From a virus: a stretch of DNA of 64,000 bases. Both the position numbers and the translations under genes were made by a program. Under the pieces are notes generated by a model. That model did not search any database. It worked only from the letters and a program-made list of their open reading frames with translations, and had not been told where the DNA came from. The stretch spans positions 62,738 through 126,737 of the IMG/VR virus record IMGVR_UViG_3300045988_117464; one strand, 5' to 3'. Positions 7,059-7,985 of the stretch are shown one piece after another (position 1 is the stretch's first letter; every line of letters starts with the position of its first letter).

Positions 7059-7115
7059 GTATAACGTTCATTACTTTTGTATCTGGCTACCGCAATTTTC
7101 AAACCTTCTTCTTGT

Positions 7116-7634
7116 TTACGAGTTAGAATCAAGTTTTACTTCCTCCATTTCATTAAAATCTAATTCATTTAAATTCCATAATCCCGCATGAAATTCTTTA
7201 TGGCAATTAGAACATAATAAGACACATTTTTTACTCTCTTCAATTGCTTTTTCTATTGTAATTGAATCAGAAGAAACAATGGTATCTTTTTTACTTGGGT
7301 CAATATGATGAAATTCTAGAGCAGCAACACATTTATTATATCCGCATCTATGACATTTACCATCGTATATTTTAGTCTTAATAAGTTCAACAAATTTACC
7401 TCTAGTAATTGTTTCTCCATCGGGAACACAATTATAACAAATTTTTCGTTTGTTAGCTGATTTAGTTAATGGAGAAAATTTTTCCCCACAAATTAAACAA
7501 GTTTTTCCTACTAAACCTCTATTATATCTTGATGCTTTATTTCTACAACTATCACTACAATATTTAGCATCTTTTCGTTTAGCATCAAATTCTTTTCCAC
7601 AAAAATTACAAATTAATTTCAATTTTATCATCAC
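7116..7634 (-). CDS. HNH homing endonuclease (zinc-finger plus HNH) inserted in the 5' end of dda
   Basis: Multiple CxxC pairs and CSNCHKEFH (HNH). The ORF 3' end overlaps the duplicated dda 5' segment. Confidence 0.7.
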   Translation of the reverse strand: MMIKLKLICNFCGKEFDAKRKDAKYCSDSCRNKASRYNRGLVGKTCLICGEKFSPLTKSANKRKICYNCVPDGETITRGKFVELIKTKIYDGKCHRCGYNKCVAALEFHHIDPSKKDTIVSSDSITIEKAIEESKKCVLLCSNCHKEFHAGLWNLNELDFNEMEEVKLDSNS

Positions 7635-7710
7635 CTTTCATAAATATATAAGAAAGGTTCTAAATGTATTATCGGATTTTGTCAAAAATTTTATCCAGCT
7701 ATACAAGTCC

Positions 7711-7797
7711 AATGCTCATGGGCGTAATAGCGCTCAACCGCAATTTTTAATCCTTCTTCTTGTTTACGAGTTAATTCCATTTTCACAGTCTCCAGGG
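7711..7797 (-). CDS. Displaced 5' fragment of dda (MELTRKQEEGLKIAVERYYAHEHWTCIAG-stop)
   Basis: ATG with an upstream RBS. The peptide matches the Dda N-terminus preceding Walker A. A second diverged copy (LTRKQEEGLKIAVARYKSNERYTCIAGYA) lies at 7060-7145, fused out of frame to the helicase body. Confidence 0.55.
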
Positions 7798-7985
7798 TTT
7801 AATCTATAATATTTATTTTCATCAACTATAAAATAATCACAAGCCCATTTTAATGTTCCATAAACACCTGTTGTATGTCTATCTATGTTATCTAATTTAG
7901 AAATTAATTCTTGAGCTTTATTATAATAAGAACAATTTTCATAATTAGAACAATAATTACATTGTTCTTTCCAGTAAATCCACAT
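7764..7985 (-). CDS. Hypothetical Cys-rich small protein
   Basis: ORF only; fits the minus-strand operon. Confidence 0.35.
   Translation of the reverse strand: MWIYWKEQCNYCSNYENCSYYNKAQELISKLDNIDRHTTGVYGTLKWACDYFIVDENKYYRLNPGDCENGINS

What the first reader, a model, noticed from the sequence alone, without database searches (positions are those of the whole stretch)
7060..7800. HNH homing endonuclease inserted in the 5' end of dda with a diverged, roughly 70-nt partial duplication of the target
Two copies of the dda 5' coding segment flank the HNH gene. Copy 1 (7711-7797) reads MELTRKQEEGLKIAVERYYAHEHWTCIAG-stop and has ATG and RBS. Copy 2 (7060-7145) reads LTRKQEEGLKIAVARYKSNERYTCIAGYA-stop and is fused out of frame (5 nt) to the Walker A region; the helicase body only has a TTG start. 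The two copies differ at several codons. This is what is expected if homing co-converted flanking sequence from a different donor phage. How the full-length Dda (TCIAG-x-GSGKST) is produced is unclear: a cryptic intron, ribosomal slippage, or a truncated or two-piece protein.
Basis: seen in the sequence. Interest (0 to 1): 0.5.

Follow-up and report, generated by a model that had tools for sequence, protein, structure and literature searches.

The report
Ribosome hop site in phage helicase
A selfish nuclease gene has invaded a phage helicase gene and brought a replacement gene start that ends in a stop codon and a 5-base gap inside the ATP-binding motif; dozens of related phages keep the same stop-and-gap under selection, so ribosomes most likely skip it, a decoding trick known from very few genes.

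Summary
An HNH endonuclease gene (7631-7116, minus strand) lies between two diverged copies of the helicase 5' end. The second copy is joined to the Walker A codons through a stop codon and 5 extra bases.

Copy 1 (7780-7691) is the dead stub of the resident gene. Copy 2 (7132-7037) came in with the HNH gene and is the working N-terminus.

The 5 bases are not an accident. I found 53 distinct alleles, in about 22 helicase lineages, with the same layout:
- a 31-codon module ending ...TCIAGYA;
- a stop codon directly after the Ala codon;
- a gap of 5, 6, 7, 8 or 10 nt, so all three frames occur;
- then GxGK[ST].

Most of these alleles have no HNH gene and no stub. Module and body are both under strong purifying selection (56 synonymous to 1 nonsynonymous change). 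A strong hairpin just 5' of the Ala codon is present in every allele with a stop and gap and absent from 58 uninterrupted alleles.

Best explanation: a short translational bypass. Peptidyl-tRNA-Ala leaves GCN at the stop and re-pairs at a near-cognate triplet just before GGN, restoring GYAGxGKST. The gap probably protects the allele from the HNH enzyme, as in T4 mobA/gene 60. The decoding step is inferred, not shown.

The parts
7691..7780 (-). Copy 1: stub of the resident helicase N-terminus (MELTRKQEEGLKIAVERYYAHEHWTCIAG-stop). It is cut off inside the Tyr codon of GYA; the last resident base is about 7692.
   Evidence: Matches the N-terminus of uninterrupted relatives P0001-4 and of L001/L003 up to GCTGGATA. 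A stub like this was found only in the window-type alleles and in L005/L038.
7635..7690 (-). Left end of the cassette: the leader upstream of the HNH gene (AAATTTTTGACAAAATCCGATAATACATTTAGAACC...).
   Evidence: Absent from the empty sites L001/L003. The same leader precedes the 84%-identical HNH gene in L005, which sits in a different helicase lineage.
7116..7631 (-). HNH homing endonuclease gene (171 aa). Its last 5 codons overlap the start of the N-terminal module.
   Evidence: PHROG HNH endonuclease families, E = 7e-24. Pfam HNH_2 at 20.4 bits against a cutoff of 21. Present or absent among related contigs. Found next to alleles with a stop and gap only, 0 of 58 uninterrupted alleles.
7141..7146 (-). 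Ribosome-binding site GGAGGA for the N-terminal module, 8 nt before the TTG start.
   Evidence: Read directly from the sequence. The string GGAGGAAGTAnAAC followed by TTG or ATG is conserved in many of the alleles, including several without an HNH gene.
7037..7132 (-). Copy 2: cassette-borne N-terminal module of the helicase, 31 codons plus stop ((M)ILTRKQEEGLKIAVARYKSNERYTCIAGYA-TAA).
   Evidence: It is the only N-terminus in about 28 of 33 viral contigs. Changes between alleles are almost all synonymous in this frame. TAG stands where Q is conserved in TAG-recoded relatives. It aligns to helix plus strand beta-1 of T4 Dda.
7043..7090 (-). Hairpin inside the module. 5' arm GTAGCCAGATACAA (7090-7077); 3' arm TTGTATTGCTGGCTAC (7058-7043). 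It ends at the codon before the take-off codon.
   Evidence: -21.4 kcal/mol, z = -4.35, 0 of 200 shuffles fold as well. Inverted repeat I2. Every allele with a stop and gap folds at -16 to -30 kcal/mol; uninterrupted alleles fold at -1 to -17.
7040..7042 (-). Proposed take-off codon GCT (the Ala of GYA).
   Evidence: GCN in 53 of 53 alleles with a stop and gap. Ala is invariant at this position in 58 of 58 uninterrupted alleles.
7035..7039 (-). Coding gap TAACT: stop codon TAA (7039-7037) overlapping the proposed landing triplet ACT (7037-7035).
   Evidence: Absent from the empty sites. Variants TGACT, TAACC and TGACC, and gaps of 6, 7, 8 and 10 nt, occur in other alleles, always starting with a stop codon.
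5934..7034 (-). Helicase body, from GGA AGT GGA AAG (GSGK, Walker A) to stop TAA 5936-5934. Contains an in-frame TAG at 6491-6489 read as Gln.
   Evidence: Pfam AAA_30 at 1.2e-19 and UvrD_C_2 at 1.6e-12. Best solved relative is T4 Dda, 3UPU. 36:1 and 56:1 synonymous to nonsynonymous changes against L002 and L034. The TAG aligns with invariant Q213.

Best explanation
What is shown:
- A Dda/RecD-like SF1B helicase gene was invaded by a mobile cassette.
- The cassette holds an HNH homing-endonuclease gene followed by a replacement 31-codon N-terminal helicase module.
- The module ends in Ala (GCT), then a stop codon, then a 5-nt gap placed exactly between GYA and GSGKST of Walker A.
- The resident N-terminus is left upstream as a dead stub.
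- Module, hairpin, stop and gap form a conserved unit in many phage helicase genes.
- Both halves of the gene are under purifying selection.

What is inferred:
- Decoding. The ribosome translates the module from its own RBS and TTG. It stalls with peptidyl-tRNA-Ala on GCU in the P site and a stop codon in the A site. The tRNA lets go of the mRNA, and the mRNA slides 5 nt (5-10 nt in other alleles). The hairpin just 5' of the take-off codon probably helps by re-forming as it leaves the ribosome. The tRNA re-pairs with a cognate or near-cognate triplet (ACU here) that sits directly before GGN. Translation resumes at GGA and gives wild-type-length ...TCIAGYA-GSGKST...
- Purpose. The gap interrupts the DNA sequence that the HNH enzyme cuts in uninterrupted alleles, so carriers are immune. 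This is the logic of T4 mobA and the gene 60 bypass. The site persists after the HNH gene is lost.
For: (1) The break is real and heritable. The same stop and gap occur in independent assemblies. There are 53 distinct alleles, about 22 body clusters at 80% identity, and 23 different gap sequences.

(2) The gene works despite the break. Body changes are 36 synonymous to 1 nonsynonymous (window vs L002) and 56 to 1 (window vs L034). Module changes are 5 to 1. Module pS and body pS are equal (0.25 and 0.25), so the two parts diverged together.

(3) The module is the true N-terminus.
- It is the only N-terminus in most loci.
- L011 has lost the HNH gene and nearly all of copy 1 but keeps module, stop and gap.
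- TAG replaces the conserved Gln of LTxKQ in TAG-recoded relatives.
- The module aligns with helix plus strand beta-1 of T4 Dda.

(4) One mechanism has to handle gaps of 5, 6, 7, 8 and 10 nt, which fall in all three frames. Ten alleles are in frame with a retained stop. Skipping from GCN to the triplet before GGN restores GYAGxGK[ST] in every case.

(5) The triplet before GGN codes Thr, Val, Ser or Ala, although Ala is invariant there in 58 of 58 uninterrupted alleles. This suggests the triplet is not translated. It is always GCN or one base away from GCN: ACY 33, GCN 11, GTN 7, TCG 2. Its wobble class matches that of the take-off codon in 49 of 53 alleles, including all 3 GCR take-offs.

(6) The codon after Ala is a working stop in each phage's own code. 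It is TAA or TGA in 25 of 25 loci that read TAG as sense. TAG occurs only in 2 loci with no sign of TAG recoding.

(7) The hairpin goes with the stop and gap.
- Alleles with a stop and gap fold at -18 to -30 kcal/mol; uninterrupted alleles fold at -1 to -17 (Mann-Whitney p = 5e-9 on unique sequences).
- The window hairpin has z = -4.35.
- It is kept through compensating changes: L046 GTATCCAG/CTGGATAC, L135-137 a 12-bp perfect stem, L020 a 13-bp perfect stem, and L016/L045 a different peptide in a shifted register.

(8) Link to the HNH gene. This HNH family lies next to alleles with a stop and gap only, 0 of 58 uninterrupted. The copy-1 stubs of two independent invasions end at GGATA| and GGTTATG|, within a few bases of where the gap sits.

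(9) The module is far more conserved than the body across lineages: 0.77 vs 0.48 identity, higher in 120 of 120 pairs. In uninterrupted alleles the figures are 0.66 vs 0.64. This fits horizontal spread of the module.

(10) Precedent. The T4 gene 60 bypass has a stop after the take-off codon, a 5' stem-loop, and an HNH-type MobA cassette whose bypass insert protects against MobA (text of 10.1101/2022.08.31.505936).
Against: - No protein or RNA data exist. The decoding event is inferred from sequence alone.
- In the window, take-off GCU and landing ACU are not a matched pair: there is an A-C mismatch at codon position 1. Only 11 of 53 alleles have a cognate GCN landing triplet. Gene 60 needs matched codons.
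- No take-off stem-loop that holds the take-off codon on its 5' side was seen. The conserved hairpin lies upstream.
- The formal column-wise test on the 14 shared hairpin pairs shows no double-sided changes, because those columns are nearly invariant. Covariation evidence rests on a few divergent lineages and on register shifts.
- A product with 2 extra residues (GYA-xx-GxGKS) would still fit the P-loop pattern [AG]x4GK[ST], so frameshift or readthrough products are not excluded on motif grounds.
- Most alleles were found with a DNA pattern that required TCIAGYA plus a stop. The sample is therefore biased toward one module family and the alleles are not phylogenetically independent.
- Cleavage by the HNH enzyme and immunity from the gap are untested.
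Confidence: 0.6

Rival explanations
1. Frameshift or readthrough centred on the stop codon rather than a hop. The ribosome resumes at a codon overlapping or next to the stop: -1 for 5-nt gaps, readthrough for 6-nt gaps, +1 for 7-nt gaps, +2 for 8-nt gaps. The helicase then carries two extra residues (GYA-LT-GSGKST in the window).
For: The resulting A-x4-GK[ST] still fits the P-loop pattern. In the -1 frame the 5-nt alleles always read Leu-Thr. A well-known stop-dependent +1 shift site (CTT TGA C) occurs in the neighbouring PolIII gene.
Against: - It needs four or five different mechanisms for one conserved module, and still needs a 4-nt skip for the 10-nt gap.
- There is no slippery sequence. 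tRNA-Ala cannot re-pair on CGC (-1) or on CUU/CCU.
- The Leu reading is forced by GCY+TRA and so says nothing either way.
- It puts Thr, Val or Ser where Ala is invariant in 58 of 58 uninterrupted alleles.
Confidence: 0.15
2. Two-piece helicase. The 31-residue module peptide and a body started at the TTG in the body frame (MYCWLRLTGSGKST...) are made separately and assemble, as in other genes split by homing endonucleases.
For: A TTG in the body frame lies 7 codons before GSGK. Genes split by homing endonucleases can stay functional (T4 genes 39/60; Aeh1 nrdA, from general knowledge).
Against: - Ten alleles are in frame, so any upstream start runs into the stop, and no start codon follows the stop.
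- No RBS precedes the TTG. The TTG exists only because of the conserved T-C-I codons.
- The split would fall inside Walker A, and strand beta-1 would have to be supplied in trans.
Confidence: 0.08
3. Dead gene. The cassette simply broke a dispensable helicase, and the frame break is a scar with no decoding.
For: T4 dda is non-essential (general knowledge). Gene callers report only a truncated 311-aa product (P0005).
Against: - Very strong purifying selection acts on the body (56:1) and on the module among carriers, with equal synonymous divergence in both.
- The arrangement persists across about 22 lineages whose bodies are only 40-60% identical.
- The stop codon and the hairpin are themselves conserved.
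Confidence: 0.04
4. Intron. The HNH gene lies in a self-splicing intron that joins copy 1 to the body.
For: Phage HNH and GIY-YIG genes often sit in group I introns. A GIY-YIG insertion in the PolIII gene of this window does obey the U...G splice-site rule.
Against: - Rfam gives no intron match, even at E up to 1.
- Only about 56 nt of non-coding sequence lies between copy 1 and the HNH ORF, and none lies after it.
- No choice of a U-ending 5' exon and a G-ending intron gives an open GYAGSGK junction (worked through on the sequence).
- Most alleles with a stop and gap have no copy 1 and no HNH gene at all.
Confidence: 0.02

Closest known systems
T4 gene 60 translational bypass with the mobA homing-endonuclease cassette
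   Same: - A coding gap interrupts an essential-type replication gene.
- A stop codon directly follows the take-off codon.
- A stem-loop lies 5' of the take-off codon.
- A free-standing HNH-type endonuclease gene lies just upstream and spreads together with the gap.
- The gap lies at or near the nuclease's presumed cut site, so it can give immunity.
- The endonuclease gene is often lost while the gap stays (for gene 60; here).
   Different: - The gap is 5-10 nt, not 50 nt.
- Take-off is at an Ala GCN codon, not Gly GGA.
- The landing triplet is usually only near-cognate.
- No take-off or A-site stem-loop and no SD-like element in the gap were seen.
- The strongly conserved RNA element is the 5' hairpin, which is poorly conserved among gene 60 homologs.
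- The target is a helicase Walker A motif, not a topoisomerase subunit.
- The cassette supplies a new N-terminus rather than splitting the gene into two expressed parts.
Short-range tRNA hopping over a slow or stop codon in E. coli test constructs (the 'hopping' cases cited in the introduction of 10.1101/2022.08.31.505936)
   Same: Peptidyl-tRNA leaves its codon when the A-site codon is slow to decode and re-pairs a few nucleotides downstream, regardless of frame. A stop codon acts as the stimulator. The distances are similar.
   Different: Those events were low-efficiency, found in artificial or mutant contexts, and needed matched codons. Here the site is natural, conserved across many phage lineages, lies in a gene under selection, and has a dedicated upstream hairpin.
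Magnusiomyces capitatus mitochondrial 'byps' (as described)
   Same: Many natural coding gaps are bypassed to give functional proteins. The inserts behave as mobile sequences.
   Different: Those gaps are 27-55 nt and lie in mitochondria. The slow codon is an unassigned sense codon, not a stop. They have no link to homing endonucleases.
RF2 (prfB) programmed +1 frameshift at CUU UGA C
   Same: Recoding depends on a stop codon. The identical heptamer occurs in the PolIII alpha gene 1.5 kb downstream in this window and in about 20 related PolIII genes.
   Different: The helicase site has no slippery codon and its gap length varies, so it is not a +1 shift.
Genes split or disrupted by free-standing homing endonucleases (for example Aeh1 nrdA/mobE; general knowledge)
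   Same: An endonuclease gene inserted inside a conserved replication or nucleotide-metabolism gene, with function retained.
   Different: Here the upstream fragment is a dead stub. The cassette brings its own N-terminal coding module, and a frame break has to be decoded.

Membership tests
Programmed translational bypassing, gene 60 type | Two ORFs separated by a non-coding gap give one polypeptide (shown by protein sequencing) | not testable with these tools
   Only indirect support: both ORFs are under purifying selection and co-diverge, and skipping the gap restores the invariant GYAGxGKS motif in all 53 alleles.
Programmed translational bypassing, gene 60 type | Matched (cognate) take-off and landing codons | tested here: not met
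   The window has GCT and ACT. Across alleles the landing triplet is cognate GCN in 11 of 53 and one base away in 42 of 53. The wobble class agrees in 49 of 53.
Programmed translational bypassing, gene 60 type | A stop or slow-to-decode codon immediately 3' of the take-off codon | tested here: met
   53 of 53 alleles. The codon is TAA or TGA wherever TAG is a sense codon, and TAG only where it is apparently a stop.
Programmed translational bypassing, gene 60 type | A take-off stem-loop with the take-off codon on its 5' side (A-site stem-loop) | tested here: not met
   Folding 6975-7150 shows the conserved hairpin 5' of the take-off codon. The downstream pairing is built from resident helicase sequence and is not conserved in other lineages.
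Programmed translational bypassing, gene 60 type | A 5' stem-loop that can re-form behind the ribosome | tested here: met
   Hairpin at 7090-7043, -21.4 kcal/mol, z = -4.35. Present in every allele with a stop and gap and absent from 58 uninterrupted alleles.
Programmed translational bypassing, gene 60 type | A nascent-peptide signal that acts in the exit tunnel | not testable with these tools
   The module peptide is highly conserved (0.77 mean identity), but this cannot be separated from its role in the helicase or from RNA constraints.
Free-standing HNH homing endonuclease cassette | HNH (beta-beta-alpha-metal) nuclease domain | tested here: met
   PHROG HNH endonuclease families, E = 7e-24 to 5e-16. 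Pfam HNH_2 at 20.4 bits, just under the cutoff of 21. The CxxC...EFHH...CxxCH motif is visible in the sequence.
Free-standing HNH homing endonuclease cassette | Presence/absence polymorphism at one site among closely related genomes, with a flanking co-conversion tract | tested here: met
   L001 and L003 are empty; the window, L002 and L004 are occupied. The tract next to the HNH gene (copy 2) is of foreign origin.
Free-standing HNH homing endonuclease cassette | Site-specific cleavage of the allele lacking the endonuclease gene, and resistance of the carrier allele | not testable with these tools
   Indirect support: the stubs of two independent invasions end within a few bases of the gap position, and this HNH family is never found next to an uninterrupted allele.
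SF1B Dda/RecD-like helicase | Walker A-containing AAA_30 domain plus UvrD_C_2 domain; similarity to Dda | tested here: met
   Pfam AAA_30 at 1.2e-19 and UvrD_C_2 at 1.6e-12. Best solved relative is T4 Dda 3UPU, E = 5e-16, aligned from residue 3 of the joined protein.
Group I intron carrying a homing endonuclease gene | Conserved ribozyme core, with a U-ending 5' exon and G-ending intron that give an open reading frame after splicing | tested here: not met
   No Rfam match at E up to 1. No splice-site pair restores GYAGSGK (sequence). Most alleles with a stop and gap have no upstream exon copy.
-1 or +1 programmed ribosomal frameshift | A slippery sequence that lets the P-site (and A-site) tRNA re-pair in the new frame, with a fixed shift size | tested here: not met
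   No X XXY YYZ or CUU-U type site at GGC UAC GCU UAA CU. The required shift differs among alleles because the gaps are 5, 6, 7, 8 and 10 nt.

The most novel reading that the evidence does not exclude
Homing endonucleases in these uncultured, mostly TAG-recoded gut phages may spread as cassettes that carry a 'recoding patch'. The patch is a short stop-initiated coding gap or shift site placed inside a catalytic motif of an essential replication gene. It makes the carrier immune to the nuclease and is decoded by non-standard translation.

The window would hold two such patches 1.5 kb apart. One is the 5-nt hop in the helicase Walker A motif. The other is a +1 shift at CTT TGA C in the PHP motif region of PolIII alpha, which in several lineages lies right after an HNH-like gene.

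Because both patches depend on slow termination at UAA or UGA, expression of the replication genes would also report release-factor activity in cells whose stop-codon reading the phage is changing.
Probability: 0.3. Interest if true: 0.9.

Novelty: new variant of a known kind. Interest (0 to 1): 0.8.

Why it matters
Programmed translational bypassing is known in nature from essentially one phage gene family (T4 gene 60 and its homologs) and from one yeast's mitochondria. The authors of the 2022 survey state that no similar bypassing had been reported in other phages.

If the helicase site is decoded as proposed:
- It is a second, independent phage bypass system. It comes with 23 natural gap variants (5-10 nt, all frames, cognate and near-cognate landing triplets) and a conserved 5' hairpin. 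That amounts to a ready-made mutational series for testing how take-off, sliding and landing work.
- It repeats the pairing of a homing endonuclease with a recoding insert. That would turn the mobA/gene 60 oddity into a general evolutionary route by which selfish nucleases create recoding sites.
- It has a practical side. In these phages the helicase, and probably PolIII alpha, are miscalled as truncated genes or pseudogenes. Here the gene caller reported only a 311-aa fragment.

Tried and rejected
- Sequencing or assembly error: rejected. The same stop and gap occur in many independent assemblies, with substitutions that keep the stop.
- Group I intron: rejected. There is no Rfam match, no workable splice sites, and too little non-coding sequence. 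Most alleles lack copy 1.
- Long bypass from copy 1 (GGA TAA ... GGA, about 650 nt): rejected. It would give TCIAG-SGKST, which lacks three residues, and copy 1 is absent from most alleles.
- Transcriptional slippage: rejected. There is no homopolymer at TAACT.
- Termination followed by reinitiation: rejected. No start codon lies at or after the stop, and in-frame alleles exist.
- TAACT as a target-site duplication: TAACT also occurs at the start of both copies. I considered this and dropped it, because other alleles have unrelated gap sequences.
- Column-wise covariation test of the hairpin: uninformative. 98% of cells are paired, but there are no double-sided changes, because the columns are almost invariant.
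- Megablast against deposited phages: no match. A protein search finds only relatives at 43% identity or less, in Enterococcus and Bacillus phages with uninterrupted genes. No cultured carrier was identified.
- The metagenome DNA pattern was too loose. Most of its hits were chance matches, and of all the new loci from the metagenome and genome scans together only 18 were helicase sites after filtering.
- The sigma-70 promoter scan of this AT-rich region was not informative.
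Full report
**1. What is in the window**

All genes in this region are on the minus strand. From 5' to 3' they are:
- a 92-aa ORF and a 73-aa ORF;
- copy 1 (7780-7691), which reads MELTRKQEEGLKIAVERYYAHEHWTCIAG-stop;
- a 56-nt leader;
- an HNH ORF (7631-7116, 171 aa);
- an RBS GGAGGA (7146-7141), overlapping the end of the HNH ORF, and a TTG (7132) that opens copy 2, (M)ILTRKQEEGLKIAVARYKSNERYTCIAGYA-TAA (to 7037);
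- 5 nt after the Ala codon, in another frame, GGA AGT GGA AAG AGC ACT (GSGKST) and the rest of a helicase down to 5934.

The repeats are real. They match at 95% over 37 nt and 79% over 28 nt, and lie 648 nt apart. The helicase body matches Pfam AAA_30 and UvrD_C_2. Its best solved relative is T4 Dda. The HNH ORF matches PHROG HNH endonuclease families at E = 7e-24.

**2. The genetic code**

The helicase body has an in-frame TAG at 6491-6489, where homologs have an invariant Gln. Treating TAG as a sense codon raises coverage of the window by long ORFs from 0.75 to 0.88. The database proteins do not translate under table 11 ('translates_to_query: no'). This is a TAG-to-Gln recoded phage. It is uncultured: nothing in the phage collection matches at DNA level, and the best protein relative is 43% identical.

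**3. Which copy is which**

Four database proteins that are 97-98% identical to the body are uninterrupted 397-aa helicases. They start MELTRKQEEGLKIAVERYYAHERWTCIAGYAGSGKST, which is copy 1 plus Walker A.
- Contigs L001 and L003 carry this empty site, GCT GGA TAC GCN GGA AGT GGA AAG.
- Contig L002 is an independent assembly about 96% identical to the window. It carries the same HNH insertion.
- The resident sequence stops at GGATA|, inside the Tyr codon, and resumes at GGAAGT.
- So copy 1 is the stub of the resident gene, and copy 2 entered with the HNH gene.
- Copy 2 is foreign. Its peptide is identical in phages whose helicase body is only 55% identical to the window's.

**4. The frame break is conserved**

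In L002 the 5 nt are TGACT rather than TAACT, and in L004 they are TAACC. The stop is kept each time. I then ran three kinds of search:
- A scan of IMG/VR for TCIAGYA followed by TAA or TGA found 33 contigs.
- A protein-guided scan returned 80 helicase loci, 58 uninterrupted and 22 with the stop and gap.
- Metagenome and genome scans added more.

In total there are 53 distinct alleles in about 22 body clusters at 80% identity, with 23 different gap sequences. Every allele has a 31-codon module ending in Ala (GCN), a stop directly after it, and then GGN NNN GGN AAR.

The distance from the Ala codon to GGN is 5 nt in 30 alleles, 6 nt in 10, 7 nt in 6, 8 nt in 6 and 10 nt in 1. All three relative frames therefore occur, including in-frame alleles that still keep the stop.

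Only the window type and L005 keep a copy-1 stub. Only a few alleles have an HNH gene upstream. L011 has lost the HNH gene and nearly all of copy 1 but keeps RBS, module, stop and gap. The unit of module, stop and gap is therefore the normal 5' end of the helicase gene in many phages. It is not a local accident.

**5. The gene works**

- Window vs L002: the body has 36 synonymous and 1 nonsynonymous change.
- Window vs L034: 56 synonymous and 1 nonsynonymous.
- Module, window vs L034: 5 synonymous and 1 nonsynonymous in its own frame.
- Synonymous divergence is the same in module and body (0.25 each), so the two have evolved together while joined by the gap.
- In TAG-recoded relatives, the conserved Gln of the LTxKQ motif inside the module is written TAG. 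That makes sense only if the module is translated.
- The module aligns with the N-terminal helix and strand beta-1 of T4 Dda, so a body without it would lack part of the ATPase core.

A pseudogene explanation is therefore very unlikely.

**6. How the break is decoded (inference)**

A single mechanism has to cope with gaps of 5-10 nt in every frame, always starting with a stop. The simplest one is a short translational bypass:
- Peptidyl-tRNA-Ala on GCN waits at a stop codon.
- It leaves the mRNA.
- It re-pairs at the triplet just before GGN.
- Decoding resumes at GGN.

This restores GYAGxGK[ST] at wild-type length in all 53 alleles.

Three further observations fit this.
- (a) The triplet before GGN is ACY in 33 alleles, GCN in 11, GTN in 7 and TCG in 2. 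If translated, it would put Thr, Val or Ser where 58 of 58 uninterrupted alleles have Ala. It behaves like an untranslated site that must resemble an Ala codon. Its wobble class agrees with the take-off codon in 49 of 53 alleles, including all three GCR take-offs.
- (b) The codon after Ala is a true stop in each phage's own code. It is TAA or TGA in 25 of 25 loci that read TAG as sense. TAG occurs only in two loci with no sign of TAG recoding.
- (c) A hairpin ends at the codon before the take-off codon. In the window it lies at 7090-7043, with -21.4 kcal/mol and z = -4.35.

Every allele with a stop and gap has this hairpin (-16 to -30 kcal/mol). The 58 uninterrupted alleles do not (-1 to -17; p = 5e-9 on unique sequences). 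The hairpin is kept by compensating changes:
- L046 has GTATCCAG/CTGGATAC.
- L135-137 have a perfect 12-bp stem, helped by an Ala-to-Ser change.
- L020 has a perfect 13-bp stem.
- L016/L045 have a different peptide (VACN) in a shifted register.

The formal column test is uninformative, because the shared columns hardly vary.

In T4 gene 60, a stem-loop 5' of the take-off codon is proposed to drive forward movement as it re-forms behind the ribosome. The same role is plausible here.

**7. Weak points of the hop model**

- There is no protein evidence.
- The window's landing triplet ACU is mismatched with the Ala anticodon at codon position 1.
- No take-off stem-loop of the gene 60 kind was seen.
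- Products with two extra residues would still satisfy [AG]x4GK[ST].

I therefore put about 0.85 on 'conserved programmed recoding site' and about 0.6 on the specific hop that gives a wild-type-length protein.

**8. Role of the HNH gene (inference)**

- This HNH family was found only next to alleles with a stop and gap, never next to the 58 uninterrupted alleles.
- It occurs with the module in at least three divergent forms: the window type, L005 at 84% identity, and L037/39/41 at 50% identity.
- In two independent invasions the resident stub ends at GGATA| (window) and GGTTATG| (L005). That is within a few bases of where the gap sits in the module.
- In L005 the donor's upstream genes were copied in as well. 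This shows that the left junction is illegitimate and variable, while the right side is fixed at Walker A.
- Across lineages the module is much more conserved than the body: 0.77 vs 0.48 identity, higher in 120 of 120 pairs. In uninterrupted alleles the N-terminus and body are equally conserved, 0.66 vs 0.64. The search pattern fixed 7 of the 30 module residues, but the excess remains after allowing for that.

All of this fits one model. The enzyme cuts the Walker A coding sequence of uninterrupted alleles. Repair copies the HNH gene plus the module from the donor. The gap makes carriers immune. This is the logic described for MobA and the gene 60 insert.

**9. Comparison with known systems**

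The closest known system is T4 mobA/gene 60.
- Shared features: a stop after the take-off codon, a 5' stem-loop, an HNH-type nuclease cassette, an insert at the target site, and frequent later loss of the nuclease gene.
- Differences: a gap of 5-10 nt rather than 50 nt, an Ala rather than a Gly take-off codon, mostly near-cognate landing triplets, no take-off stem-loop, and a strongly conserved 5' hairpin.

Because two defining gene 60 features were tested and not met, I do not file this as a member of that family. I file it as a new variant of programmed bypassing.

Short hops over stop codons are known from E. coli test constructs, but as low-efficiency events. I found no paper describing a helicase or Walker A bypass.

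**10. Verdict**

- The real finding is larger: a widespread, selected stop-plus-gap recoding site in a phage helicase, most likely a short ribosomal hop, linked to a homing endonuclease.
- Interest is 0.8.
- Novelty: new variant of a known kind.

Noticed in passing
window 5614-5440 (minus strand); shift site CTT TGA C at 5560-5554: The PolIII alpha (DnaE-type, PHP domain) gene breaks frame at about codon 19. It reads MRSYFNCHSHTMYSNLRLL-TGA, then continues in the +1 frame as DCINRPTALIDKAIELGLSGIAITDHE. Relatives L001-3 have CGT CTA TTA GAT TGT with no extra T. The site is the same heptamer as the RF2 (prfB) +1 frameshift. About 20 distinct viral PolIII N-termini have H.H[ST]..YSN[IL]RLL | CTT TGA C | DCIN.... 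In L057, L064, L069, L076, L077, L081 and L085 an HNH-like ORF (DHIIPxSxGG...N; Pfam HNH E about 0.002, below cutoff) ends just before the PolIII start. In the window the surrounding 130 nt or so form a diverged patch, like a conversion tract. I found no paper on this.
   Followed up: partly
window 4236-3082 (minus strand): A 1155-nt insertion sits in PolIII alpha at the catalytic PDIDID motif, relative to L001-3. It encodes a GIY-YIG/NUMOD3 endonuclease in two ORFs, 3991-3614 and 3523-3272 (Pfam SegE_GIY-YIG 24.6 bits against 25, GIY-YIG 21.9 bits against 22.6). It is flanked by a 12-nt repeat, ATATTGATATTG. The 5' flank ends in T and the insert ends in G, as at group I splice sites, and removing it exactly restores ...ELP DIDIDL.... 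Rfam finds no intron.
   Followed up: partly
whole window; examples at 6491-6489 and 5851-5849 (minus strand): TAG is used as a sense codon (Gln). An in-frame TAG lies at an invariant Gln of the helicase, and another lies in the 87-aa ORF downstream. Coverage by long ORFs rises from 0.75 to 0.88 when TAG is read as sense. No suppressor tRNA lies in the window. The only tRNA genes are Cys, Lys and Gly at 60370-62087.
   Followed up: partly
window 8284-8301 and 5642-5659 (minus strand): An exact 18-nt repeat, TATTATATAAATATAAAT, preceded by ATATGG/ATATGA, lies about 20-30 nt upstream of the 92-aa ORF and of the PolIII gene. Chance expectation is 0.3 matches, against 4 found when 2 mismatches are allowed. 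It is probably a phage promoter motif bounding the operon that holds the HNH and helicase genes.
   Followed up: no
L190 (metagenome contig OIZL01008022.1, 3232 bp): The helicase N-terminal module with GCG TAA GG TCG is followed by a P-loop that continues as an ABC-transporter-type ATPase (GSGKSTILRCLNMIEKPTKG...), not a helicase. This is either an assembly chimera at the shared Walker A sequence or an illegitimate recombination product.
   Followed up: no
L287, L288, L290, L294, L296 (genome contigs): Helicase alleles with the stop and gap occur on contigs binned with Gemmiger formicilis, Mollicutes, Anaeroplasmatales, Bacilli and Clostridium MAGs from gut samples. This hints at Bacillota hosts, but they may be mis-binned phage contigs.
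   Followed up: no
phage record KT895374.1 (Bacillus phage vB_BpuM-BpSp), 49560-51075: The helicase homolog matches in two pieces over 1516 nt for 392 aa and is annotated as two hypothetical proteins (H8). It may be another interrupted Dda-like gene, this time in a cultured phage.
   Followed up: no
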